DNA from: FCB group bacterium
GTDB lineage: Bacteria; Zixibacteria; MSB-5A5; GN15; JAAZOE01
NCBI GenBank assembly: GCA_024231695.1
Contig: JAAEQF010000083.1
Coordinates: 588-64,587 of the forward strand
DNA: 64,000 bases
Reading direction: 5' to 3'
Positions 40,691-54,374 of this stretch are shown here, piece after piece. The notes under the pieces are model-generated. The model was given only the letters and a program-made list of their open reading frames with translations, did not search any database and had not been told where the DNA came from. Position numbers and translations under genes: made by a program. Position 1 is the first letter of the stretch. Every line of letters starts with the position of its first letter.

Positions 40691-41920
40691 TCAGGATAGC
40701 AACGTTCCTGCCAGCTTGATGCTCTTCTCTCCATAACGATCACGGATGGCATCCACCGCCTCGGTCAACCGACCGATTTCCTCTTCCTGAGGATTAACCA
40801 TTAATTCCAGTTGGACGCTTTCTCCGGTCTTGTGGTTCAAAGTCTCGTCCCCCTGATCATTGAAGCGGATTTTTATTAACTGGGACATTCGCACCCCCAA
40901 AAGCCGAACCGGAATTTTCATGCCGTATTCCTTGGGAATTAATCGCATTGCCTGCTGAAAAACAACATCACAGCGATCGGTCGGATGGTTGATTGTATGA
41001 GAGCGAGTGATGGTCTGGAAATCATGGGAACGGATTTTAACCGATATGGTGCGTCCGATATAGCCGCGCCGTCTCAACCTCCGGGCCACTTTATCGGCCA
41101 GCCACAACACCGTGGCCTTGATCCGAGTGGGGTCCTGAAGATCTTTGCCCAGGGTTGTTTCATGCGACATCGACTTGTCATGCGGCCTCTCCCGGTAGGG
41201 AACGGCCTTGGTTCGATCTATCCCCTGCGAAATGACCGACAATCCCTCGCCGTTTTTCCCGAGTATTCCTTTAAGCAATTTTGAATCGGTCGACGCCAGA
41301 TCAGCAACGGTATGTATCCCTTTACCGGCCAGAACCTTTTTGGTGCTTTCCCCCACGCCCCACAAAGCATCAACCGGCCGAGGATAATATATACGCTTGA
41401 ATTCATCGCGATCCAAAACCGTCAACCCATCCGGCTTGTTTAAACCGGAAGCCAGCTTAGCCAGATACTTGCTCGGGGCGATCCCCACCGAACAACTCAA
41501 TTGCAACTGATCTCTGATTTCCTGTTTCAATGCTTCGACCAGTTCTATCGGCCCGCCGAATAACTTCTCGGTCCCGGTGATGTCCATCGAAGCCTCATCC
41601 ACACTGAACGGTTCGACAATGGGTGTGTATTTTTCAAATATCTGCTGAAGGCGAGCCGAAACATAGACGTAGCCACGCAGGCCTGATGATATAAACACAC
41701 CCTGGGGACACAAACGCCGCGCTTTCACCGCCGACATTCCCGAATGCACACCGAATTTCCTGGCCTCGTATGAACAGGTCGAAACCACCCCTCTCTGCCC
41801 CGCACCACCGCCGACAATAACCGGCTTGCCTTTCAGATGCGGGTTATTGCGAACCTCCACCGCAGCAAAGAAAGCATCCATGTCAACATGGACTATGACC
41901 GGACTGAATTCAATCATCAT
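40691..41920 (-). CDS. dinB: Y-family DNA polymerase (DinB / Pol IV-like)
   Basis: HVDMDAFFA, CSYEARKFG, SVDEA, KLAS..NKP.G, clamp-binding-like QLELM, C-terminal D.IR.RYG tail. Confidence 0.93.
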   Translation of the reverse strand: MMIEFSPVIVHVDMDAFFAAVEVRNNPHLKGKPVIVGGGAGQRGVVSTCSYEARKFGVHSGMSAVKARRLCPQGVFISSGLRGYVYVSARLQQIFEKYTPIVEPFSVDEASMDITGTEKLFGGPIELVEALKQEIRDQLQLSCSVGIAPSKYLAKLASGLNKPDGLTVLDRDEFKRIYYPRPVDALWGVGESTKKVLAGKGIHTVADLASTDSKLLKGILGKNGEGLSVISQGIDRTKAVPYRERPHDKSMSHETTLGKDLQDPTRIKATVLWLADKVARRLRRRGYIGRTISVKIRSHDFQTITRSHTINHPTDRCDVVFQQAMRLIPKEYGMKIPVRLLGVRMSQLIKIRFNDQGDETLNHKTGESVQLELMVNPQEEEIGRLTEAVDAIRDRYGEKSIKLAGTLLS

Positions 41921-42165
41921 TCAACCCATATCTTGCTTATTACCCAGTGCGTCTTGCGCTCGTCGTATGAAAGCTGAAAAAAATTGGAAGAACTGTCAAC
42001 TACGGCAAAATGTCTGATTCGATATGCCCCTACATCGGTTTTCCAGTCGCCGGTCACTTCCGATATTTTGTACACCTGTCCATTCCAGCGAAACCGTGAC
42101 GGCCGCATACTGTTGTTCTGGAACAACACTACGACCTCGACTGATTCATCCATATCCTGATACAT
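41917..42165 (-). CDS. Small beta-rich protein, DUF6504/ImuB C-terminal-domain-like, coupled to dinB
   Basis: P..FRWNG..Y.I..V...W ... F.L.YD....W pattern; its stop overlaps the dinB start (ATGA). Confidence 0.7.
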   Translation of the reverse strand: MYQDMDESVEVVVLFQNNSMRPSRFRWNGQVYKISEVTGDWKTDVGAYRIRHFAVVDSSSNFFQLSYDERKTHWVISKIWVE

Positions 42166-42166
42166 A

Positions 42167-42253
42167 TCACCATTTCACCATAAAGAAATACTTTATTATA
42201 TCAGCCATACTTGTTAGTAACAATAGAGTTGCGACACCCGCAATATACCGCAT
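42167..42253 (-). CDS. Putative 28-aa hydrophobic small protein (unannotated)
   Basis: MRYIAGVATLLLLTSMADIIKYFFMVKW* behind AAAGGGGA; stop is 1 nt before the next ATG. Overlaps a good promoter, so it could be spurious. Confidence 0.3.
   Translation of the reverse strand: MRYIAGVATLLLLTSMADIIKYFFMVKW
42195..42223 (-). promoter_or_regulatory. Promoter for the small gene-dinB pair, with a palindrome over the -35 box
   Basis: TTGTTA-17 nt-TATAAT with extended TG; perfect inverted repeat TTGTTA-C-TAACAA at 42211-42223. Confidence 0.55.
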
Positions 42254-42296
42254 ATATCCCCTTTCTGATCATTTCATTCCCTTAAATTCGTCCCGA

Positions 42297-42917
42297 TCAG
42301 CGCATCCTGCGCATCAAACCGACCACTCTCCCGGCGATATAAAACCCCGGCGTATCCTCCTCGACAATAATCGGACCGAAAGCATCATTCTGCGGCTCCA
42401 GCCTTACCCGGTGTTTCTCCGGATAAAATTTCTTGACCGTCGCCTCTTCTCCGATAACGGCCACCACAATATCACCTCGAATCGGCTGTGCCTCCCGATG
42501 AACAAGAACGAAATCACCATCGAAAATACCGGCATTGATCATCGATTCCCCTTTGACTCGAAGACAGAACACATCCTCCGTCGGCAAAAAAGTGGTATCG
42601 ACGGCAATCTCGCCTTCCCGATTTTCGATCGCCGTAATCGGCAAACCGGCCGGAACCGATCCGACCAATGGGACTGTATGGTACCGAACCAGCGTCTGCC
42701 GGACCAGTTCGATTCCCCGCGACACCAATTTTTGGCGGCGAATATATCCTTTGGTCTCCAGAGCATCCAGAATCGAACGAACGCCGTTGGTCGAAGATAT
42801 ACTAAATTGCTCGCCGATCTCCCTGATTGTCGGCGGCATACCCGAACCGCGAATCTTATCCTCGATAAACGATAAAATTTGCTTTTGCCGTTCGGTCAGT
42901 TTTATTATGGGACTCAT
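42297..42917 (-). CDS. lexA: SOS repressor LexA
   Basis: LTERQ..IL, PPTIREIG wHTH, VPAG Ala-Gly cleavage site, GESM Ser, TVKK Lys; RBS GGAGGAG before ATG 42917. Confidence 0.96.
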   Translation of the reverse strand: MSPIIKLTERQKQILSFIEDKIRGSGMPPTIREIGEQFSISSTNGVRSILDALETKGYIRRQKLVSRGIELVRQTLVRYHTVPLVGSVPAGLPITAIENREGEIAVDTTFLPTEDVFCLRVKGESMINAGIFDGDFVLVHREAQPIRGDIVVAVIGEEATVKKFYPEKHRVRLEPQNDAFGPIIVEEDTPGFYIAGRVVGLMRRMR

Positions 42918-42945
42918 GTCTCCTCCATTGAGAACACCGTTAAAC

Positions 42946-42982
42946 TGCACATAAAGTTACTGCCCAAATGTTCAGGCGTCAA
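42946..42982 (-). promoter_or_regulatory. lexA promoter with candidate SOS box
   Basis: TTGACG-17 nt-TAACTT; imperfect palindrome TGCCC-AAAT-GTTCA (42961-42974) in the spacer and a second half-site TGCAC at 42946. Confidence 0.6.
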
Positions 42983-44152: not shown

Positions 44153-44243
44153 GACCGTATATTTGGCTGGAAGACCTCTATCGGGAACCTTTCCGGTCGA
44201 TTATGTATATAACAGTTAGGAATTGCATATACTTGGAGGATTG

Positions 44244-45029
44244 ATGCGAAACGTATGGCTAACGGCCGTTTCAGTTATTATTATAACTCTTCTTTTGGCA
44301 GCGACGGTAATGGCTTTGCCGAAAATGTATTTGCCCGAAGAAGTGTTTGATTTCGGATATACGCCCCAAAACAGCAAAATATCTCATGTCTTTTGGATAA
44401 AATCGGTCGGCGAGGATTCGCTCAAAATTGTCAGCGTAAAACCTGGCTGAGGATGCACCAAGGCTCCAATTAAGAAGTCGGAGCTTGCTGTCGGTGACAG
44501 CACTGAGCTTGAAATTATTTTCTCCACCGGTAAACGGGTCGGCAAAACGAGTAAACGTCCGACTATCACGACCAACGAGGGACCTCCCTCGCGCCGGGTA
44601 ACAGTCAAGGCGGATATTATCCGCCAACCCGATTCTACTTACCCTATTGTCATCAATCCTTATCGTATTTATGTTTCCAAGGCAGGCGATACGGAAGTTG
44701 ATGAGGCGAAGTTCACCATTACCAACGTTTCCGACATAGATCTTGAACTCGAAATTCTCAGCGAACCGTATGGTTACTTTGTACTGGATATTCCCAAGAC
44801 GATCAAGGCCGGCGAGGCTATTGACTGTGAGCTTAAAGTTAATTATATGCAGTTGGGTCACTCTTTCAACAAATCGATAACGATCGGATTAAATGACCCG
44901 ATTAATTCGCGGTTTACAATTCCGATAGTCAGAAGATTGATTGGCCACCAGGCTACTGCCAACAAAACCAACAAAGCCAATAAGCCTAAAGCCCAGCCGC
45001 AACAGGATAAAAAGCCTGGCGGCAAATAA
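44244..45029 (+). CDS. Exported DUF1573-type (Ig-like) protein, predicted selenoprotein (Sec69, U-G-C motif), 261 aa
   Basis: RBS GGAGGA, signal peptide, FDFG...HVF.IK..G.D.LKI..VKPG-TGA-GCT matching the family CGCT motif. Frame stays open from 44451 to TAA at 45029, joining ORF-track fragments 44223..44450 and 44847..45029. Confidence 0.85.
44459..44502 (+). promoter_or_regulatory. Candidate SECIS element(s) after TGA 44448-44450
   Basis: Hairpin CAAGGCTCC-AATTAAGAAGTC-GGAGCTTG starting 8 nt after the TGA; alternative perfect stem TGCTGTC-GGT-GACAGCA at 44486-44502. Confidence 0.55.
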
Positions 45030-45050: not shown

Positions 45051-45088
45051 TACGGCCCCTCGAAGATTAATTCGGCGGGCCGTTTTTT
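45051..45088 (+). terminator. Intrinsic terminator after the DUF1573-type gene
   Basis: ACGGCCC...GGGCCGT stem followed by TTTTT. Confidence 0.7.
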
Positions 45089-45229
45089 ATATGATTTTGT
45101 TCTTTGCGTTTGCCGATCTTTTATTATAATAACAGGAGACTGGGAACAAACGCGGCCAATCGATGGTTGAATTTGAAGACGATTAACGCGGTTTCAGCCC
45201 ATGTATTGTAGATGAGGAGAAACAACTCG

Positions 45230-45583
45230 ATGGTAGATATATCCAACACCGCCAGCCAGGAACTGACCAAGGTTCTTGGAGCTGAACAACATAAAGGCAA
45301 AGAGCTCTTTGTCAATTTTATGGGTTTTGGCTGAAGCGGTCCCGTTCTGGGATTGGCTCTGGATGAGCCAAAAGACACTCATAGCCGGTTTAACTCAAAC
45401 GGTATTGACGTTTATTTGCATACCGACATGGTCGGCCAGCTCGATCAGTTGGGCGGGGTTTTTATAGATTTTGTGGATCGTGGCCCGCAGGAGCGGGGTT
45501 TTATGATCACGACCAAAAAGAAACCAGATGGCGCCGATTGCAGTGGGTGCTCCAGTGCCAGCGACAGTTGCAGTACCGATTAA
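45230..45583 (+). CDS. HesB/IscA-like selenoprotein (Sec35), 117 aa
   Basis: RBS GAGGAG; MVDISNTASQEL...FMGFG-TGA-SGPVLGLALDEP... with C-terminal CSGC...C. TGA 45332-45334 sits at the conserved Cys/Sec of HesB-like proteins; in frame with ORF-track fragment 45353..45583. Confidence 0.92.
45353..45371 (+). promoter_or_regulatory. Bacterial SECIS-like hairpin of the HesB-like gene
   Basis: Perfect stem TTGGCTC-TGGAT-GAGCCAA; G-containing apical loop begins 25 nt after the TGA. Confidence 0.7.
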
Positions 45584-45663: not shown

Positions 45664-47073
45664 TCAATCATCGCCGTGCTTCCAGGATTCCTCGGGCGCT
45701 TCTTCACTCATTTTCGTTTCCCAAGAGGGGTCATATTTCTCGCGGGGATGGGTCGAATGAACCAGCCGATAGTCAATACCTCCGGCCATCGGATCGCTGG
45801 CAAAGATAAATATCACACCACCTTCAAGTTTATAATATTCCCATTTGATCATGGGATAATTCATACCCTGCATGGCCAGATCGACTTCACTATCATAGGG
45901 TCCGTAAGTAATATAAACTCTTCCCCGATCCGTATGCCATCCGTCATGAAGGGAACTATGGGTGGAGAATTTATCAATGGCAAACATATATCGCTGCACG
46001 ACCTGGTTATAGAACGGATTTTCCGGCGTGGTTGGATCATCATCCATGCGTCGCCAAAATTGCAGGAGCATATTTTTCTGAGCCAGGGGATCCAACTTTC
46101 TAATCTGGATTTTGTCCGCTTCACTTAGATGATACCAGGCGATATTAACCATTAATTCAGCGTCGGCGGCACTTATAGCTGTCGTGTCCTCCAAAGGCGC
46201 CACAACGGTAAATGGCTTGACTGTCAGCGTATGTCGGTCGGTACTCGGATCATTTATTTCAAGCGACAGAAAATAATCCCCGGCGTTGACCCCTTCAATC
46301 CCCAGCGCATTAGATAGAACGGCCGACGCTCCCGGTTTATCATACTTGATCTCGCCGAAGTCATGAACCACTGTGCCCAATTCATCTTTGATTTTATAAT
46401 TGACAACAAACCCTTCATCATCCGTGCCCGAGCGTTCAAGACCGTAAAGCTCGCTGTACACATAGATAACGCTGTCGATCCCCAGCTGGTAAGCGGCTGA
46501 TGGGTTGGGTACAACCAGACGATTCTCCTTGACCAAACGAGGATTGATAGTCTTCCCGGGATTTTCATCTATGTCGCGGATATAATAAGCCAGTTCCATA
46601 CCGCTAAGCATCATGCTATGCTGGTCAAACGGGGGCACAGTCACTTTCAGTTCCGCTCTGCCGGACGCCTTGGACACATCATCAATAACGCTTATTTCCG
46701 CTCGATAACTACCGGGTGCGGCATTCACCAGCAGATAATCAAACAGGCGTTGGTTAGTTTGTGCCACCTCAACCGTATCCTCAATTTTCGACAAGAAGTA
46801 AGTTGAACTCGAATCGATCAGACCGCCTTCATCGTCATATAGGCCGACCGAGACATAAACGCCGGCAAACCTGTAATCCAAAGTATCGGCGCCGATAAAT
46901 CCGAGTTGATTCTGATACAAACCATAGTAGAACTCAATATTGGCCGACCGGTTATCCGGATTATAGAAAACGGCATAGTCGGCTTGTATGGTCAGATCCT
47001 CGACAGCCAATGCTGCCGGATTCAGTGCCGCAATCATAATCAATAAAGCCAAGTAAATCGCTGTATTTTTCAT
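45664..47073 (-). CDS. GWxTD domain-containing exported protein
   Basis: Signal peptide; FW...DDDPTTPEN and DGWHTDRGRVYITYGP motifs. Confidence 0.88.
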   Translation of the reverse strand: MKNTAIYLALLIMIAALNPAALAVEDLTIQADYAVFYNPDNRSANIEFYYGLYQNQLGFIGADTLDYRFAGVYVSVGLYDDEGGLIDSSSTYFLSKIEDTVEVAQTNQRLFDYLLVNAAPGSYRAEISVIDDVSKASGRAELKVTVPPFDQHSMMLSGMELAYYIRDIDENPGKTINPRLVKENRLVVPNPSAAYQLGIDSVIYVYSELYGLERSGTDDEGFVVNYKIKDELGTVVHDFGEIKYDKPGASAVLSNALGIEGVNAGDYFLSLEINDPSTDRHTLTVKPFTVVAPLEDTTAISAADAELMVNIAWYHLSEADKIQIRKLDPLAQKNMLLQFWRRMDDDPTTPENPFYNQVVQRYMFAIDKFSTHSSLHDGWHTDRGRVYITYGPYDSEVDLAMQGMNYPMIKWEYYKLEGGVIFIFASDPMAGGIDYRLVHSTHPREKYDPSWETKMSEEAPEESWKHGDD

Positions 47074-47081
47074 AAACTCCC

Positions 47082-48398
47082 TTAAAAAGACAATCCATTG
47101 AAAGGCGGCTGCAATTCATAATCTCCATCCCCCCACTCATCAATGAACAGAAACCGGCGAGGAGGCGTGGAACGGTAGTAATGCCAATACTGATAAGGTT
47201 TGGTCGCCAACTCAAACGGATAATCTTCCACCTCGTCTGGTTCGCCGTGTGTAATATAAACCATCCCCCGGCCGGTTTTCCAGCCTTCTTTTTTCATAAA
47301 TGAAAAATAACGATTTGAATGTCGTACCCGCCGAAAATACTCTTTCTTGTTGGGATTTTCCCGCCCACGGGCATTATCGTCGCGTAAACTCCAAAAATCA
47401 TCCCAGAGTTGTCGTCTTTCCCCTGGCTGCTTGGCCTTTTCCAGTTTCTTTAGTTCTTCCCGCGTTGCCAGATATTTCAGCATCTTTATGGCTGTCTTGT
47501 AATCATTGCGGAACATGGTCTCGGCGGTCAACTCCAGTTCAAACGGCTCAATTAGTTTATTATATACTTTTCCCCGCCGCCCTTCCAATCGCAATTCCAG
47601 TTCATAATCACCGGGCAGGATATTGGCCACGTTGACGGTATGAAGTTCGCGTTTAATTTCATCGACGACACCATAAAAAATAGTATCCTGATACACGAAT
47701 CCCTTGGTCTTATGGTATATCCGATTTATTAATTTGATCTGTTTTTCCTGGGAGCGCCCCGGATAGACTTCGACATAATAATGCAGAAGGCTGTCGTTGT
47801 CACCACCATACAATCGGCTTACGCTGGGGATAACCCGAAAATCGCCTTTATTGAATTTGGAGTCCCTTGAGCCGGTGTCGAATTCGCGGGCAAACTCAAC
47901 CCGTGAGACATTTGGGTACTTACGCCAATAGTCTCGTTTCTTGAGCTTGCGAGTTATTTCACGGGCCGTCTGAGCATGCTTGTCGATTAGTGAGGCCCGA
48001 ATATTCACATCCTGCTGATCCAAAGGAATGCGAAACATGTTAATCACAAAATCTTTCGATCGCCTGGTTTCTGGATAAGTCTTGACAAAAATGCGGCTTT
48101 CCTTGATCTCGCCATAGATCTGAACGTCATTCTTGCCGTCCACGACCAACGCGATTTCATAAAGCGCCTCGTAACCATCTTCCAACTTCTGATAACTCAG
48201 GGCATCGTAGAATATTTTATAATATATTTCAAGAACAGCAGTCTTTTCCTGCTCGCCCCTGAAGTCTGCCGCTTCAATGGCAAATCGAGCCTCTCCAAAC
48301 TCATTAGCGGGTCGATAGCCGGTTTGCCCGAGGACGATACCTGCCAGCAATATCAGCAATAAGCCGCGTGCGATAGAATGTAAAGAATTTATTTTCAT
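47082..48398 (-). CDS. GWxTD domain-containing exported protein (variant motif GWKTG)
   Basis: Signal peptide; FW...N...EYFRRV..SN..F and EGWKTGRGMVYITHGEPD. Confidence 0.85.
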   Translation of the reverse strand: MKINSLHSIARGLLLILLAGIVLGQTGYRPANEFGEARFAIEAADFRGEQEKTAVLEIYYKIFYDALSYQKLEDGYEALYEIALVVDGKNDVQIYGEIKESRIFVKTYPETRRSKDFVINMFRIPLDQQDVNIRASLIDKHAQTAREITRKLKKRDYWRKYPNVSRVEFAREFDTGSRDSKFNKGDFRVIPSVSRLYGGDNDSLLHYYVEVYPGRSQEKQIKLINRIYHKTKGFVYQDTIFYGVVDEIKRELHTVNVANILPGDYELELRLEGRRGKVYNKLIEPFELELTAETMFRNDYKTAIKMLKYLATREELKKLEKAKQPGERRQLWDDFWSLRDDNARGRENPNKKEYFRRVRHSNRYFSFMKKEGWKTGRGMVYITHGEPDEVEDYPFELATKPYQYWHYYRSTPPRRFLFIDEWGDGDYELQPPFNGLSF

Positions 48399-48470
48399 GC
48401 GTCACCACCGTCTCTCAATGGAATTTACGCTAATCTAACTCCATGATGTTATACGAAGCAAGCGAATATT

Positions 48471-49718
48471 TTATTCGTACCGAAGCGATATGATCGGATC
48501 GACCTTGGCCGCTTTGTAGGCCGGGTAAATGCCGGCCGCCAGGCCGACAAAGACCGAAACGAAGAATCCTAGACTCATCCATAATATTGAGACGGTGAAA
48601 GGCATCGAAAAGAGCAATTTTACGATAAAAGCAAGTGTAATTCCGGCCATAATGCCCAATACCCCTCCCGTTCCGGACAAAGTCATGGCTTCGGTAAGAA
48701 ATTGTATCAATATATTCATCCGCCGGGCTCCAATAGCCTTGCGTACACCAATTTCCCGTGTCCGCTCGGTTACCGAGACCAGCATAATATTCATAACCCC
48801 CACGCCGCCAACCATCAGTCCTACCGACGAGATGACGATCATGGCAATATAGATCACGTCCGTGATATTGTTAACCATTTCCTTGAGGTTATCCTGCGTC
48901 CATATGGCAAAATCATTCGGTTTATGATAAGGGACACCTCGCTGGTTGCGCAATGCAGCCGTGACTTCCTCTATCGCCTGGGGGATAGCTTGACTACTGA
49001 CGGCACTGACCTGCAAAAACAGCGCTTTCTCCCAAGGGTGTAATTTGGCGAAAGTAGTGTAAGGCAGGATGACAAAATTATTGTCTGATTCACCCAAAAA
49101 CGGCTCTTTTTCTTCCATCACGCCGATCACCCGAAGGAGCCTCGAATTGACCCGGATATTCTGATTTATTACCTGATCGTTTTTTTCAAAAAGCGCATTG
49201 GCTACATCGGTGCCAATGACGCAAACCATGGCCCGTCGCTCCATGTCGAATTCATTGAAGAACCGACCTCGATCGACATAACGCTTGTTGACTCTGGAAT
49301 AGTCGGGGGGCGTGCCAAATAGATTGGGTCGATTAGCCTGCTTGCTCTTGTATTTGACAATATTGCCACCGGGAGCAAAATAATAATTCTGTGGCGACAC
49401 GGCCGTAACCGAGGGGCACATTTCCCGAATCACCTGGGCCGCTTCATAATCGATCGGCTTGCGATTGCGCTCTTCCTCGGTCAACTTATCATAATCAACA
49501 TCGGGGGCAAATTTGGTCACAAATAAAACATTCGACCCCATGTTTTCGATCTCGCTCTGGACCATCTTGTCCAGACCGGAAATTATTGAAGCCATACCAA
49601 TGACTGCAGCCACACCAATAAGGACGCCCAAGATGGTCAAAAATGATCGCAATTTGTTTTCCCGAAGCGAGCTCATGGCCAGCAAAATACCTTCTTTTAT
49701 TTCAATCGTACTTATCAT
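48471..49718 (-). CDS. MacB/FtsX-type ABC transporter permease
   Basis: [52 protein letters not shown]. Confidence 0.95.
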   Translation of the reverse strand: MISTIEIKEGILLAMSSLRENKLRSFLTILGVLIGVAAVIGMASIISGLDKMVQSEIENMGSNVLFVTKFAPDVDYDKLTEEERNRKPIDYEAAQVIREMCPSVTAVSPQNYYFAPGGNIVKYKSKQANRPNLFGTPPDYSRVNKRYVDRGRFFNEFDMERRAMVCVIGTDVANALFEKNDQVINQNIRVNSRLLRVIGVMEEKEPFLGESDNNFVILPYTTFAKLHPWEKALFLQVSAVSSQAIPQAIEEVTAALRNQRGVPYHKPNDFAIWTQDNLKEMVNNITDVIYIAMIVISSVGLMVGGVGVMNIMLVSVTERTREIGVRKAIGARRMNILIQFLTEAMTLSGTGGVLGIMAGITLAFIVKLLFSMPFTVSILWMSLGFFVSVFVGLAAGIYPAYKAAKVDPIISLRYE

Positions 49719-50999
49719 TTAAGTCTCAAATCGCAGGGCTTCAATGGGGTTCATATTGGATGCTTTCACCGCTGGGTAAAGGCCGAAAAACACACCCACT
49801 CCGGTTGAAATCGATAAGCCGGCCGATATGGCAAACAATGATGGTTCCACTGGCAGAGATATTTGCCCGCCGAGTATTATAGCGATTACAATTCCCAATG
49901 CGGTACCGATCATGCCCCCGCCCATCGACAGGATCAAAGCCTCGAATAAAAATTGAGTTAAAACGTTTTTTCGCCGGGCACCGATTGATTTACGAATGCC
50001 GATCTCGCGCGTTCGTTCGGTTACCGACACCATCATAATATTCATGATTACTATACCACCGACGACAAGGGCGATCGAAGATATGCCCACCAGAGCGACT
50101 CGCACCATGCGAGTTGTATTTTCAACAAAACCCAGAATATTCTCCGCCGTCAGAATATCAAAATCATCCTCCTCTTTATAATCAACTCCCCGTCTCGCCC
50201 GCAAAATAACCCGGGCCTGATCCATTGTGTCTTCAATCCCCTCAATCGTATTCGATTTTATGGCCAGATTGAAATTATGGCGCGGTTTCCCAAACAGCTT
50301 GATATGCGTCGTCAATGGAATAAAGGCAAAATTATCCTGATTATTCCCCAGCATTGAGCCCCTCTTTTTGGCCACACCGACAATAGTGAATTTACGGCCT
50401 TTGATCTTGATCGTCCTGCCGATCGGATCAACTCCGTCGCACAGTTCCTCGACAATAGTCGGCCCAACGAATGCGACCTGGTTTTTATGTTCATATTCAG
50501 CCTGTGTGAAATACCGCCCCTCGGCTACTTCAAAATCGATAACATCGATAAAATTGGCCGGTGAACCACCAATGGGTACTCGGCGAAGGCCCTGATTCCC
50601 TCGTTTGATAGATGATCGGGAATAAGTACGCCCGGAGACTTCCAGGCAATCGGGACATCCTTCGGCCACAGCATCCATGTCCCTGATGGACAAATCTTTG
50701 CGCTTAAGGGCCTTGAAATAATCTTCCTCGGAAGTGATAATACCGAATTTGGTTACGATAAACGTTGCCGGTCCAAGGGCACTCAGCGAATCCTCGATAC
50801 TACCCATCAATCCCTCCAGGGCGGAAATAATGGTGATCACCGAGGTCACGCCGACAATGACTCCGAAGAGAGTCAAGATCGACCGCAAACGGTTGGCCCA
50901 GATAGCAGCCAAAGCCATCTTTAAAGATTCATACAGAGACATGATATATAGCCGCCTACGCCGACTGCTTGAATTCCTCTTTTTCCACCTTACCGTCAA
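49719..50999 (-). CDS. MacB/FtsX-type ABC transporter permease
   Basis: [45 protein letters not shown]; true start likely MSLYES. Confidence 0.95.
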
Positions 51000-51645
51000 T
51001 GATATGAACTATCCGGTCGGCGTGCTGAGCCACGCTGTATTCATGCGTGACCACGATCAGAGTATTGCCCTGCCGATGAAGATCGGCCATCAACTGCATA
51101 ATCTCGGCGCCGGTAGTAGTGTCCAGATTACCGGTCGGTTCATCGGCCAGAATAATCGACGGGTTGTTGACCAGCGCCCGGGCTATAGCCACCCTCTGCC
51201 TCTGTCCCCCGGAAAGCTCGCTCGGCTTATGGGTCATCCGATCGCCCAAACCGACGATTTCCATCGCCTTGATGGCGTTCTCCCGCCGCGCATCGCTTGA
51301 GGTGCCATTGTAAATCAAAGGCAACTCCACGTTGTGCAGGGCCGTGGCCCGCGGTAAAAGATTGAATGTCTGGAAGACAAACCCGATTTCCTTGTTACGA
51401 ATCCGGGCCAGGTCGTCGTCGCTGAGATCGGCTACTGACTGGGTATTCAGGTGATAGACTCCCTCAGACGGCGTATCCAGGCATCCGATCAGATTCATCA
51501 GTGTCGATTTGCCCGATCCAGACGGCCCCATGATCGCCACATATTCGCCCTTGGCAATCGACAGAGTGATACCGCGTAGAGCATGAACCTTTTCCTGCCC
51601 CATCACATATGTTTTCCATAGTCCTTCGACTTCGATCAGACTCAT
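50956..51645 (-). CDS. ABC transporter ATP-binding protein (LolD/MacB-like)
   Basis: [32 protein letters not shown]. Confidence 0.97.
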
Positions 51646-52973
51646 CGCCCATCTTCCTTTTTTGCTTTACTGTTGTCCACTTCTATTTCGTCGCCATTCT
51701 TGATCGTTCGCAGAATACGGAAACTGCCGGTAATGATCTCGTCGTCTTCCTGCAAACCGGAAATGATTTCGATATTCTGCCGGTCGGCTATGCCGGTTTC
51801 CACTTCAACGAACTCGGCCACTCCGTCCCGGTTGACGAAAACACCCTTGCGGTCTTCCTCTTCCTCCGCCTCATCGCCTTCGTCGGCCTCTTCAACTTCA
51901 TCCACTGTCGAAGCCACAGCGACATTGCCGTCGTCATCGACGTTCTCGTCCGAATCAACCTCGGTCGAATCTTTCTCAGGGCCGCGCATTACGATTGCCT
52001 GAATCAGAGTCGCCAAAACATCATTGTGCTCGTTGGTAGTTATATCCACAGTAGCCGACATTCCCGGCTTGATTTTGCCATACACATCCAAAAGAGTAAC
52101 TTTGACCTTGAAATTGATCTGTTGATCGTTGGAACCCAACCCGGTGATCGTCGCCGTGTTACCGATTTCAATGACTTCGCCATCGAAAGTCGTATCCGGG
52201 AAAGCATCGATTTCAACTCCCGATTTCTGACCCACCGCAAGGTCGGCGATATCGGTTTCGTCAATTTCGACTTCGACTTCAAACTCAGAAAGATCGGCTA
52301 CGATCATCAGCGTCCGGCCCTGAGAATATGGCGTTTGAGCCTGGGCGATTTCGCCCACTTCGACGTCCACCCAGGTCACGACCCCATCCATCGGCGATTC
52401 TATCGTCGTTTTGTTCAGTAGATCACGAGCCTTTTCCAAGCGCGAAGACGCCGCCCGTTTCTGCTCCACCATGGCCTTATAACCGGCCTCTTGATTCCGG
52501 AAGGCATAGTGCGCATCCTTATAGGCCTGCTCCGAAGTCAGCTTCTTATTGTAAAGCTCCATCTGGCGGTTGTATTCCTCGCGGCGCTGATCCAGAAGAA
52601 TCTGTGCGCCGTCCAGACGGGCTTCGGTTTCGTTGGCCGAATAGAGAGCCGATTCCATATCGGATTTCAACTGAATCGTATCCAGTTGAATCAAGATCTG
52701 GCCTTTATTGACCCAGTCGCCTTCCTTAACCGGCAGGCTGATCACTTCGGCTGAAGCTTCTGAAACGATATTCACCTTGGTCTTGGGCTGAATCCGTCCC
52801 GAACCGGAGACAATCGATGTTACATCGGTGGTGAAGACCTTTTTGGTCTGTACGGTAATTAAACCCCGTTTACCCTGATTCATGTTAACGGCCACCAGAA
52901 CGGCCACCAGAATCACTACACCCAGAATAATAAACAGCTTCTTTTTACTTTTTTTCTTTCCCATCACGCTCAC
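51642..52973 (-). CDS. Periplasmic adaptor / membrane fusion protein (MacA/YknX-like)
   Basis: N-terminal TM, VKEGD.V.KGQ lipoyl half, coiled coil, SPMDG.V, KPGMSA.V.I; acidic insert. Confidence 0.92.
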
Positions 52974-52997
52974 CCTTAATTATACGCCAAAAAGCGC

Positions 52998-54374
52998 TTA
53001 CTCCCCCATCGCATTCTGTAATTTTGCCAAAGCCAGATTATAATCAAACTCAGCCCTGACTTTGTTGAACTGAGCCGATTTCAAGCTCACCTGCGCATCC
53101 AAAAGTTCCCACAACGCGGCCGCGCCGAGATTATACTTGGCCTGAACCAGATCCATATCTTCACTGGCCGCTCGTTCGCTTTCCTCGGTCACGCTGAGGG
53201 TCTTGTCTGCAACTGTTATATCCAGATGGGCATCCCGAATATCACGGATTACCTGATGTCGAGTATTCAGCTGCGAAGCCCGGGCATTATTAAGACTGGC
53301 CTTGGCCCGACTCATGTTATACTCACGACTGAAACCATCGAATACGTTGTAACTAAGTGTTACACTCAAACGGCTCGAATGATCAAACGATCCGAACTTG
53401 ATAATATCGCTGAATCGATCTTTTGACCAGCTATAAGAATACCCGACCGACAGGTTGGGCATATAGCTGCCCCAAGCCGATCGGACATCATAATTAGCCA
53501 CGTCTATATTGGCTTGAGAGCCTAAAACCGAAGGATGCCCCTGAGTCGCCTTGGCAATTAAATCATTGATATTGCTGATCTGCGCCTTACGTAGATCCAG
53601 ATCTGCGATGTCATACTCGGTTTGCGGATCAAGGCCGATATCGACGGCCAAATCGTCCAAATAAAATTCCAGGTTTTTTTCGGCCTGCAGGAGGGTAAGC
53701 TGATCGTTGCCGTATTGAACCTTTTGCTTGAGGACTTCGGATAGAGAAGCTGAACCGAGTTCATATTTTTCCTCAAACAATTTTAACAGTTCTTCCGAAC
53801 GCCCAACCGTCTGCTTGGCCACTTCCAGGTCATTCTTGGCCTTGAGCACCAGGTAGTACTCGGCCTTGATGCCAAATGTCACATCAGACAGCGCATTGGC
53901 ATAATTATAATCCGTGCCCTTTTTATACGCTTTACTTCCGAGATAATTCCAAACGTTCTGCAGACCGTTGAACAATGTGTAATTGAGCGAGATCCCAGCC
54001 GTATGCGATTTGTATTTCACGTCGTTGGGATTGCCCGACAACAATAGTGTGTCGCGAAAGACCGGCATAAAAATGACTGTATCGGCCTCAACTCTTCCGG
54101 ATAATTCGGTAATTGTGGTCTCCCGGAGCTGTGGAGATTCCGGTCCTGAGGTGATTTCGGTGGAATTGTACGATACTGATGCCGAAGGTAAAAACCCACC
54201 AGCCGACTGCCAGACACCCGCACCGGCCGTCTTGACCGAATTCCGGAAACTGACCAGATTCGGGTCGGTTGCGACCGCCATCTGAACACACTCTTCCAGC
54301 GTGTATGTTTCGGCGGCGACGCTACCCCACGCCACTACCAGGAAAGCTGTGAAAATCAAAAAGGCCTTTTTCAT
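52998..54374 (-). CDS. TolC family outer membrane efflux protein
   Basis: Signal peptide, TLEECV..A, two OEP repeats (Y.LG.AS..E.L), P.L/A.V-type strand starts. Confidence 0.9.
   Translation of the reverse strand: MKKAFLIFTAFLVVAWGSVAAETYTLEECVQMAVATDPNLVSFRNSVKTAGAGVWQSAGGFLPSASVSYNSTEITSGPESPQLRETTITELSGRVEADTVIFMPVFRDTLLLSGNPNDVKYKSHTAGISLNYTLFNGLQNVWNYLGSKAYKKGTDYNYANALSDVTFGIKAEYYLVLKAKNDLEVAKQTVGRSEELLKLFEEKYELGSASLSEVLKQKVQYGNDQLTLLQAEKNLEFYLDDLAVDIGLDPQTEYDIADLDLRKAQISNINDLIAKATQGHPSVLGSQANIDVANYDVRSAWGSYMPNLSVGYSYSWSKDRFSDIIKFGSFDHSSRLSVTLSYNVFDGFSREYNMSRAKASLNNARASQLNTRHQVIRDIRDAHLDITVADKTLSVTEESERAASEDMDLVQAKYNLGAAALWELLDAQVSLKSAQFNKVRAEFDYNLALAKLQNAMGE

What the first reader, a model, noticed from the sequence alone, without database searches (positions are those of the whole stretch)
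44244..45029. Hidden exported selenoprotein: DUF1573-type Ig-fold protein with a U-G-C motif
Seen: the ORF track stops at TGA 44448-44450, but the frame continues for 192 sense codons to TAA at 45029. The TGA falls exactly at the first Cys of the family motif (VKPG-U-GCT versus V..SCGCT), is followed by stable hairpins, and the gene has an RBS, signal peptide, promoter and terminator. Established: Sec is encoded by UGA plus a downstream SECIS and usually replaces a redox-active or metal-binding Cys. Inference: a 261-aa periplasmic or secreted selenoprotein with two Ig-like domains; Sec in a UxC motif implies the CGC motif of DUF1573 is catalytic or metal-binding rather than structural. I do not recognise this as a classical selenoprotein family and cannot check whether it has been reported.
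Basis: partly seen in the sequence, partly recalled or inferred. Interest (0 to 1): 0.9.

Follow-up and report, generated by a model that had tools for sequence, protein, structure and literature searches.

The report
Known-type DUF1573 selenoprotein, mis-annotated
This gene really does encode an exported protein with a selenocysteine where its relatives have a cysteine, but selenoproteins of this family have been in print since 2007, so it is a mis-annotated new member and not a new kind.

Summary
ORF 44244-45029 (+) has one in-frame TGA (44448-44450) and then 192 sense codons. The read-through protein is a DUF1573 / HYDIN-type Ig protein.

Evidence for selenocysteine:
- Of the 20 best homologous loci (the window's own copy and 19 from related genomes), 18 have TGA at this column and 2 have Cys.
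- Two hairpins just after the TGA are kept at synonymous sites in 24 TGA forms and lost in 10 Cys forms.
- The genome has selA, selB and a selD that itself contains a TGA.
- tRNA-Sec is missing from this fragmented assembly but present in 5 of 5 relatives tested.

The family is already published as a selenoprotein. It appears as OS_HP2 = pfam07610 with a UxC/UGC motif in 2007 and 2008 papers and in 2022 and 2026 reviews, and as NCBIfam NF041425.

Three things are new:
- This is a two-domain branch in Zixibacteria that gene callers truncate.
- The GG-loop hairpin sits unusually far from the UGA.
- An IscA/HesB-type selenoprotein gene lies directly downstream.

The protein's function is still unknown.

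The parts
44235..44239 (+). Shine-Dalgarno-like GGAGG, 4 nt before the ATG
   Evidence: Read from the sequence.
44244..45029 (+). Full selenoprotein gene: 261 codons plus TAA, with U69 encoded by TGA
   Evidence: Pfam DUF1573 84.2 bits against a cut-off of 26.1, and PF22544 65.3 bits. Orthologues align over the full length across the TGA.
44244..44315 (+). Predicted Sec-type signal peptide (residues 1-24, cleavage after V-M-A)
   Evidence: Inspection of the sequence. AF2 places a helix at residues 2-19. Orthologues keep A-x-A followed by [LVQ]PK. No predictor was run.
44322..44624 (+). Ig-like domain 1 (DUF1573 / HYDIN-VesB type), carrying the U-G-C motif
   Evidence: Pfam match to residues 32-125. 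AF2 beta-sandwich with pLDDT 89-98.
44448..44450 (+). Sec codon TGA (U69); C71 two residues later is invariant
44462..44485 (+). Hairpin 1 (nt 15-38 counted from the U of UGA): GGCUCC / GGAGCU stem with a variable 12-nt loop
   Evidence: Paired in 20-24 of 24 U-forms per pair and in 3-10 of 10 Cys-forms per pair. Present in the MFE of 16 of 24 U-forms and 1 of 10 Cys-forms. RNAalifold did not choose it.
44487..44501 (+). Hairpin 2 (nt 40-54): GCUGUC-GGU-GACAGC, the candidate SelB-binding apex
   Evidence: 99.3% of cells paired in 24 U-forms and 60% in 10 Cys-forms. The codons for A-V-G-D-S are fixed at synonymous sites only in U-forms. RNAalifold consensus. A second DUF1573 subfamily has a hairpin at the same place with a different stem.
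44637..44948 (+). Ig-like domain 2
   Evidence: AF2 beta-sandwich over residues ~132-235 with pLDDT 92-98. Weak DUF5001 Ig-like hit.
44949..45026 (+). Lys/Pro/Gln-rich tail: a predicted short helix (236-245), then no regular structure; low model confidence
   Evidence: pLDDT 50-80 and DSSP helix at 236-245. Poorly conserved among orthologues.
45052..45089 (+). Intrinsic-terminator-like hairpin plus U-run
   Evidence: dG -19.7, z -2.29.
45230..45583 (+). Neighbouring second selenoprotein gene (IscA/HesB family, U35 at TGA 45332-45334); not part of the DUF1573 protein but syntenic with it

Best explanation
The gene at 44244-45029 is a functional selenoprotein gene of a Candidatus Zixiibacteriota genome. 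UGA 44448-44450 is decoded as selenocysteine by SelB and Sec-tRNA(Sec). Decoding is directed by mRNA structure immediately downstream: hairpin 1 at nt 15-38 and hairpin 2 at nt 40-54, the second with a C-GGU-G apex like the selD SECIS of the same genome. The 261-residue product has an N-terminal signal peptide. After export, two PapD/ASH/HYDIN-type Ig-like beta-sandwich domains and a low-confidence tail remain. Sec69 replaces the first Cys of the DUF1573 hallmark C-G-C, giving U-G-C in the loop after strand C of domain 1. Shown here: the conserved TGA/Cys column, conserved read-through, U-form-specific RNA constraint, Sec machinery genes, and the fold. Inferred: that export occurs; which hairpin binds SelB; and that U69 and C71 form a redox-active selenenylsulfide (my preferred reading, about 0.5) or a soft-metal/chalcogen binding site (about 0.35). 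It belongs to the already published DUF1573/OS_HP2 selenoprotein kind.
For: TGA column:
- Of the 20 best loci (the window's own plus 19 from relatives), 18 have U and 2 have C at PG-x-[GS]CT, and the sequence downstream is alignable over the full length.
- One search lists a TGA inside the best match in 35 of 41 genomes of the order. At least one TGA-bearing match is listed for 40 of 41, among the 150 matches shown (29 more were not listed).
- Among 96 aligned database homologues plus the query, column 69 is C in 91. It is W in 5, which fits gene callers having read TGA as Trp. C71 is invariant.

RNA constraint:
- The top-codon fraction at conserved residues is 0.77 for codons +1 to +18, against 0.53-0.60 in the rest of the gene. 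Ala, Val, Asp and Ser of AVGDS are fixed at 0.96-1.0.
- The named two-hairpin structure is paired in 96.5% of cells in 24 U-forms and 59.2% in 10 Cys-forms.
- A second DUF1573 U-subfamily (10 sequences) keeps a hairpin at nt 38-54 with a different stem, UUCCCC/GGGGAA, and a hairpin 1 in which 2 pairs have changed on both sides and still pair.
- This genome's selD has a GCCCAGC-GGC-GCUGGGC hairpin after its own TGA. A BSepDB example of a canonical SECIS also has a GGC triloop (passage).

Sec machinery:
- selA scores 505 bits and selB 316 bits, and the two are adjacent. selD scores 373 bits and has 1 in-frame TGA.
- tRNA-Sec is found in 5 of 5 relatives.

TGA is normally a stop here: 13 of 44 long ORFs in the window end in TGA.

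Fold and family:
- The AF2 model has pLDDT 92 and pTM 0.82. Foldseek hits are HYDIN/ASH-type tandem Ig proteins and 2qsv.
- The family is in print as a selenoprotein and has an NCBIfam model, NF041425.
Against: - No tRNA-Sec was found in this assembly. Rfam's best hits are tRNA-Ser and tRNA-Leu, and ARAGORN found none among 43 tRNAs. The MAG has 1001 contigs and 7.9% estimated contamination, so selA, selB and selD could in principle sit on foreign contigs.
- The hairpins in the 24 U-forms show no compensatory change: 0 pairs changed on both sides, and shuffles equal the observed value. Within this subfamily the support is sequence conservation, not covariation. The U-forms are also closer kin to each other than the Cys-forms are.
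- RNAalifold did not pick hairpin 1. In single-sequence MFEs of nt 1-60, hairpin 2 appears in only 9 of 24, because nt 5-11 compete for the same 3' arm.
- The 91-nt stretch is not more stable than shuffles.
- The NF041425 score is 72.7 bits, below the curated cut-off of 100.
- There is no RNA, proteomic or selenium-labelling evidence, and nothing tests the redox or metal idea.
Confidence: 0.93

Rival explanations
1. Nonsense pseudogene or assembly error. The TGA is a real stop or a miscalled base, and the downstream frame is a decaying remnant.
For: Public gene calls treat it this way: the window's gene is on record only as a 186-residue C-terminal fragment. No tRNA-Sec was found in the assembly.
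Against: The same TGA is present in 18 of the 20 best loci at 46-65% protein identity, with full-length conservation after it. Synonymous sites after the TGA are more constrained, not less. A ~93%-identical strain in marine metagenome contigs spans the gene, and no change at 44448-44450 appears among the 40 difference rows shown; 81 further rows were not shown.
Confidence: 0.02
2. TGA is read as an ordinary amino acid (Trp or Gly) under an alternative genetic code, or by near-cognate read-through, rather than as Sec.
For: Five database homologues carry W at this column, which shows that some pipelines translated TGA as Trp.
Against: 13 of 44 long ORFs in the window end at TGA, and several orthologues themselves terminate at TGA. 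The aligned residue in homologues is Cys, not Trp or Gly. selA, selB, selD and (in relatives) tRNA-Sec are present. The U-form-specific hairpins have no role under a plain recoding.
Confidence: 0.02
3. Real selenoprotein, but U-G-C is a soft-metal or chalcogen-binding site (a periplasmic chaperone or scavenger) rather than a redox-cycling selenenylsulfide.
For: Reviews list several metal-handling selenoprotein families in which Sec replaces the first Cys of a Cys pair, including a cation-transporting ATPase, CobW-like, MerT-like and YHS proteins (tables). Periplasmic Ig-like metal chaperones exist (recalled, not tested). No thioredoxin-like fold is present, and no thiol-redox partner gene was found among the ORFs of 150 aa or more between 36085 and 54374 that were scanned.
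Against: There is no conserved His/Met/Cys cluster beyond U69 and C71, except the near-invariant H48. No metal transporter or regulator is adjacent. Most Sec residues of known function are redox-catalytic, as the reviews state.
Confidence: 0.35

Closest known systems
OS_HP2 / 'DUF1573 domain-containing' selenoprotein family (pfam07610, UxC/UGC; NCBIfam NF041425)
   Same: The same Pfam domain passes gathering. Sec sits at the first Cys of the C-G-C hallmark, giving U-G-C, as tabulated for OS_HP2. Cys homologues far outnumber Sec forms: 354 Cys against 2 Sec in the GOS table, and here 91 C in 96. NF041425 is the best NCBIfam hit.
   Different: It scores 72.7 bits, below the NF041425 cut-off of 100, so it is a diverged branch. 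It comes from Zixibacteria, whereas the first reports were from Olavius deltaproteobacterial symbionts and ocean samples. It has a second Ig-like domain, and it occurs as U and C paralogues in tandem arrays in relatives. I could not see the published alignments or SECIS figure for OS_HP2; Figure 5 of the 2007 paper does not include OS_HP2, and supplements are closed.
HYDIN / CFA65 / VesB-type (ASH, PapD-like) Ig domains; PDB 2qsv (P. gingivalis protein of unknown function)
   Same: PF22544 scores 65.3 bits. Foldseek top hits are tandem ASH-type Ig domains of ciliary central-apparatus proteins (E down to 2e-13) and 2qsv (E 3.7e-9, 17% identity).
   Different: The resemblance is in fold only. 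No PDB chain is detectable by sequence or by profile. TM-scores are low (about 0.3) because the domain orientation differs. None of these proteins has a known Sec or CxC active site.
Exported thiol-disulfide oxidoreductase selenoproteins (DsbA-like, DsbG-like; UxxC)
   Same: They are a working analogy: Sec replaces the N-terminal Cys of a Cys pair in a protein that acts outside the cytoplasm (families listed).
   Different: Those proteins have a thioredoxin fold and UxxC spacing. This one has an Ig fold and UxC spacing, so it is not a member.
Canonical bacterial SECIS (for example selD of this genome and the BSepDB selD example)
   Same: A G+C-rich hairpin with a GGY triloop closed by C-G matches hairpin 2 of this gene.
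   Different: In selD the hairpin starts 13 nt after the UGA (nt 17-33). Here the matching hairpin starts 36 nt after it (nt 40-54), and another conserved hairpin fills the gap. From memory, the published bSECIS model expects the apical loop about 16-37 nt from the UGA. That figure is recalled and was not checked in any call.

Membership tests
DUF1573 (Pfam PF07610) | Domain match above Pfam's gathering score | tested here: met
   84.2 bits against a cut-off of 26.1, residues 32-125.
DUF1573/OS_HP2 selenoprotein | In-frame TGA at the first Cys of the C-G-C motif (U-x-C / U-G-C) | tested here: met
   VKPG-U-GCT. The motif is given as UxC or UGC in the literature tables.
DUF1573/OS_HP2 selenoprotein | Cys-containing homologues aligned at the Sec column | tested here: met
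   2 of the 20 best loci, 10 paralogues in the held loci, and 91 of 96 database sequences have Cys.
DUF1573/OS_HP2 selenoprotein | NCBIfam NF041425 score above the curated cut-off | tested here: not met
   72.7 bits against 100. In the six-frame search of the genome it scores 45.7 bits. It is filed as a diverged branch of the Pfam-level kind, not as an NF041425 member.
Bacterial selenoprotein gene (general) | SECIS-like stem-loop immediately downstream of the UGA | tested here: inconclusive
   Two hairpins are specific to U-forms and conserved at synonymous sites, and they recur with a different stem in a second subfamily. However, there is no covariation within the subfamily, the GG-loop hairpin is unusually distal, and bSECISearch was not available.
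Bacterial selenoprotein gene (general) | selA, selB and selD in the genome | tested here: met
   505, 316 and 373 bits, all above their cut-offs.
Bacterial selenoprotein gene (general) | selC (tRNA-Sec) in the genome | tested here: not met
   None in G000 by Rfam, ARAGORN or blastn with relatives' tRNA-Sec. The assembly has a median contig of 1154 nt and also lacks tRNA-Ile and tRNA-Phe. 5 of 5 relatives tested have tRNA-Sec at 66-74 bits with anticodon TCA.
Bacterial selenoprotein gene (general) | Selenium actually incorporated into the protein | not testable with these tools
   Needs 75Se labelling or mass spectrometry.

The most novel reading that the evidence does not exclude
The DUF1573 selenoprotein genes of Zixibacteria use a bipartite SECIS. 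The hairpin with the canonical C-GGY-G apex lies 36 nt after the UGA, about 20 nt further than in selD of the same genome. A second conserved hairpin fills the gap, so only about 12 unpaired nucleotides separate the UGA from structured RNA. The arrangement is kept in two diverged DUF1573 subfamilies with different stem sequences, and the adjacent HesB-like selenoprotein gene also has tandem hairpins. If hairpin 2 is the SelB site, this widens the accepted spacing rule for bacterial SECIS elements. It would also help explain why about one in eight database selenoprotein genes lack a 'canonical' SECIS.
Probability: 0.3. Interest if true: 0.5.

Novelty: new member of a known kind. Interest (0 to 1): 0.3.

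Why it matters
1. It is a concrete annotation error. The gene and its orthologues are on record only as about 175-190-residue C-terminal fragments, or with Trp at the Sec position. Zixibacterial selenoproteomes are therefore undercounted.
2. The lineage offers a natural experiment. TGA and Cys paralogues of one exported Ig-fold protein sit side by side in many genomes. That would suit a study of why Sec is kept at a CxC site of unknown function.
3. The distal GG-loop hairpin, with an intervening hairpin, is a testable exception to the usual SECIS spacing.

None of this changes the fact that the selenoprotein family itself was described in 2007.

Tried and rejected
- Pseudogene or sequencing error: rejected on the conserved TGA column.
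- Alternative genetic code: rejected on stop-codon usage (13 of 44 long ORFs end in TGA) and on Cys at the aligned column.
- A long single stem-loop, with nt 4-12 pairing with nt 46-56 and enclosing hairpin 1, appears in many single-sequence MFEs. I ranked it below the tandem-hairpin model for three reasons. Gly-codon position 6 varies (C, A, U or G) with no compensating change in its invariant partner G53. The second subfamily cannot form it. By inference from the known ribosome footprint, nt 4-12 lie inside the ribosome when the UGA is in the A site.
- Other read-through candidates in the window were screened (54 TGA-split frames). The three longest were checked by Pfam. One is two adjacent in-frame genes (an FAA hydrolase and an AlaX-like gene). 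One is a YfiO/BamD-like gene whose real start lies after the TGA. One had no hit. None is a selenoprotein.
- The neighbourhood was searched for a thiol-redox or metal partner among the ORFs of 150 aa or more between 36085 and 54374. None was found. The neighbours are SOS genes, DUF3187, a MacAB-TolC-like operon ending in two GWxTD genes, and housekeeping genes.
- PDB by sequence and by profile gave no relative.
- Sequencing runs: no RNA holder was listed, and only four DNA runs from one study held small shares (0.06-0.08) of the sampled words. Laid as contigs, they show a ~93% related strain spanning the gene.
- Complex prediction, the search of protein representatives and the metagenome scan were not used, because no claim here depended on them.
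- Supplements of the cited papers are closed. They may already list Zixibacterial DUF1573 selenoproteins and OS_HP2 SECIS models, and I could not see them.
- Literature searches: 'OS_HP2'/'selenoprotein', 'DUF1573' (4 papers) and 'Zixibacteria'+'selenocysteine' (3 papers). In the one of those three papers that I opened, the two passages naming Zixibacteria do not concern this protein. I therefore found no printed statement about this Zixibacterial branch, but that rests on these three searches only.

Full report
**What is in the sequence**

On the + strand an ATG at 44244 follows GGAGG (44235-44239). The frame runs to TAA at 45027-45029 and has a single internal stop, TGA at 44448-44450, which is codon 69. 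Standard ORF listing ends at that TGA. Read through, the product is 261 residues with the motif VKPG-U-GCT.

It matches Pfam DUF1573 (PF07610) at 84.2 bits against a cut-off of 26.1, and the HYDIN/CFA65/VesB Ig-like domain (PF22544) at 65.3 bits. The N-terminus is a hydrophobic helix ending V-M-A|L-P. A hairpin plus U-run follows the stop (45052-45089; dG -19.7, z -2.29).

**Is the TGA meaningful?**

The window is contig C83 of a 1001-contig MAG. Record titles of close relatives name Candidatus Zixiibacteriota.

- A six-frame search of 41 genomes of the same order found homologues in 41 of 41. The best match contains a TGA in 35 of 41. At least one TGA-bearing match is listed for 40 of 41, among the 150 matches shown; 29 were not listed.
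- For the 20 best loci (the window's own copy plus 19 from relatives) I extracted the frames and aligned them. 18 have TGA at exactly this column and 2 have Cys (PGCSCT, PGCGCT). Full-length conservation continues after it, at 46-65% identity to the window protein.
- Scanning all loci held at that point for the motif gave 24 distinct TGA forms and 10 distinct Cys forms. Duplicates, and hits too close to a locus end, were dropped.
- In the public protein collection, full-length homologues are Cys forms. The window's own gene is on record only as a 186-residue fragment starting after the TGA, as are several orthologues. Five sequences carry W at the column, which fits TGA having been read as Trp by a gene caller.
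- TGA is an ordinary stop in this genome: 13 of 44 long non-overlapping ORFs in the window end with it.

**Sec machinery**

- selA (505 bits) and selB (316 bits) are adjacent on contig C865.
- selD (373 bits) on C555 itself contains one in-frame TGA.
- No tRNA-Sec was found in this assembly by Rfam, ARAGORN or blastn with relatives' genes.
- The assembly has a median contig of 1154 nt and also lacks tRNA-Ile and tRNA-Phe.
- 5 of 5 relatives tested have a tRNA-Sec at 66-74 bits with anticodon TCA.

I treat the missing selC as an assembly gap, but it is a formal miss.

**RNA signal after the UGA**

Counting from the U of UGA, the 24 TGA forms share two adjacent hairpins.

- Hairpin 1 is at nt 15-38 (GGCUCC / GGAGCU, with a variable loop).
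- Hairpin 2 is at nt 40-54 (GCUGUC-GGY-GACAGC).
- In the named structure 96.5% of cells pair in the TGA forms and 59.2% in the 10 Cys forms. Pairs 42-52 and 44-50 hold in 24 and 23 of 24 TGA forms, against 1 and 2 of 10 Cys forms.
- Codon-level analysis shows a local peak of synonymous constraint. The top-codon fraction is 0.77 for codons +1 to +18, against 0.53-0.60 elsewhere. The Ala, Val, Asp and Ser codons of AVGDS are fixed at 0.96-1.0 in TGA forms only.

Points against:

- There is no compensatory change within this subfamily (0 pairs).
- RNAalifold recovers hairpin 2 but not hairpin 1.
- In single-sequence MFEs hairpin 2 appears in only 9 of 24, because nt 5-11 compete for its 3' arm.
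- The region is not more stable than shuffles.

Independent support comes from a second, diverged DUF1573 TGA subfamily in the same genomes (motif KAKGS-U-GCTAAV...IPPGGEGE). I looked at 10 of its sequences (listed open frames about 370-430 aa).

- It has a hairpin at the same place (nt 38-54) with a wholly different stem, UUCCCC-CGGGY-GGGGAA.
- It also has a hairpin 1 in which 2 pairs have changed on both sides and still pair.

This genome's selD carries GCCCAGC-GGC-GCUGGGC at nt 17-33 after its TGA. A BSepDB example of a canonical SECIS also has a GGC triloop (passage). Hairpin 2 thus has the canonical apex but sits about 20 nt further downstream than in selD, with hairpin 1 filling the gap. 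Which hairpin binds SelB is not settled.

Contigs from four marine metagenome runs match only the short stretches 44439-44528 and 45347-45378 at 85% or more. This fits strong nucleotide conservation right after both TGAs. A ~93% related strain spans the whole gene.

**The protein**

AlphaFold2 with a 96-sequence alignment gives pLDDT 92 and pTM 0.82. The model has a signal helix, two beta-sandwich domains (about residues 27-127 and 132-235), a short helix at 236-245, and a low-confidence tail.

Foldseek finds tandem ASH/PapD-like Ig domains of HYDIN-type ciliary proteins, and 2qsv, a P. gingivalis protein of unknown function. No PDB relative is found by sequence or by profile.

U69-G-C71 lies in the loop after the strand at residues 60-66. 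C71, T72 and P75 are invariant, and H48 is nearly so. I could not inspect coordinates, so the local geometry is not described.

**Context**

- The gene appears to stand alone, with its own RBS and a terminator-like hairpin. The terminator is a fold prediction and no transcript data were available.
- Upstream and divergent lie a DUF3187 protein, LexA, DUF6504 and a Y-family polymerase.
- Downstream is a second selenoprotein gene at 45230-45583. It is IscA/HesB-like with the motif GFG-U-SGP. Its best NCBIfam hits are NF038090 and TIGR01911, both below their cut-offs. All 11 distinct orthologues found carry TGA, and all have tandem hairpins after it.
- Convergent with these genes is the tail of a TolC-HlyD-ABC-MacB/FtsX operon, ending in two GWxTD-domain genes.
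- The order DUF1573 - HesB-like - GWxTD recurs in relatives. The HesB-like gene is present in 10 of 19 loci and GWxTD in 12 of 19. More distant relatives have tandem arrays of TGA and Cys DUF1573 paralogues.
- No thiol-redox or metal partner was found among the ORFs of 150 aa or more between 36085 and 54374.

**Comparison with what is known**

- NCBIfam's best hit is NF041425, 'OS_HP2 family (seleno)protein', at 72.7 bits, below its cut-off of 100.
- OS_HP2 was introduced as a new selenoprotein family from Olavius symbionts in 2007 (PMC1976440; Table 2 and section 12 read).
- It was tabulated in 2008 as 'OS_HP2, pfam07610, UxC', with 2 Sec and 354 Cys sequences (PMC2398784, passage).

The kind is therefore known. 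This gene is a diverged, two-domain Zixibacterial member that standard annotation misses. No function has been assigned to the family in the passages I saw.

**Mechanism, with odds**

- That UGA-69 is decoded as Sec: 0.93.
- That the product is exported: about 0.85, based on signal-peptide features only.
- That U69 and C71 cycle as a selenenylsulfide acting on extracytoplasmic thiols or oxidants: about 0.5.
- That they bind a soft metal or chalcogen: about 0.35.
- Purely structural: about 0.1. This is unlikely, because Sec is costly and is kept across an order.

**Verdict**

I rate it as a new member of a known kind, interest 0.3. The only part with some reach is the unusual SECIS geometry.

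Noticed in passing
window 45230-45583 (+), TGA at 45332-45334: A second unannotated selenoprotein gene lies directly downstream. It is an IscA/HesB-family protein with GFG-U-SGP. Its best NCBIfam hits are NF038090 (63 bits, cut-off 85) and TIGR01911 HesB_rel_seleno. All 11 distinct orthologues in relatives' loci carry TGA, followed by two tandem hairpins (GGUCCC..GGGAC, then GGCUC-UGGAY-GAGCC).
   Followed up: partly
G000:C118:26517-27125 (locus L023); G000:C813:5666-6340; G000:C118:6273-6932; G000:C83:65773-66036 (just past the window end): The same genome holds further DUF1573 paralogues. One carries TGA at the same motif (NPG-U-GCT) with the same hairpin 2, and three have no TGA.
   Followed up: partly
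loci L059-L068 (relatives G003, G005, G008, G012, G018, G019, G022, G025): A second DUF1573 selenoprotein subfamily has listed open frames of about 370-430 aa and the motif KAKGS-U-GCTAAV. Its SECIS-like hairpin (UUCCCC-CGGGY-GGGGAA) lies at the same distance from the UGA. Its C-terminal part was not examined.
   Followed up: partly
G000:C555:11328-12251 (locus L018): selD of this genome is itself a selenoprotein (ACAG-U-ASKLGP). A GCCCAGC-GGC-GCUGGGC hairpin lies at nt 17-33 after the UGA.
   Followed up: partly
window 45664-54374 (-): An operon-like run on the minus strand reads TolC-like OEP, HlyD, ABC ATPase, two MacB/FtsX permeases, then two GWxTD-domain proteins. GWxTD genes stay next to the DUF1573 genes across the order, in 12 of 19 loci.
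   Followed up: partly
window 40691-42950 (-): An SOS-type cluster sits upstream of the DUF3187 gene: LexA, a small DUF6504 protein and a Y-family (ImpB/MucB) polymerase. LexA and DUF6504 are 76-91% identical in family-level relatives.
   Followed up: no
relatives G002:C1:2434048-2437425 and similar arrays in G021, G028, G037, G039: There are tandem arrays of three to four DUF1573 paralogues mixing TGA and Cys forms. This looks like repeated duplication with Sec/Cys switching. No tree was built.
   Followed up: no
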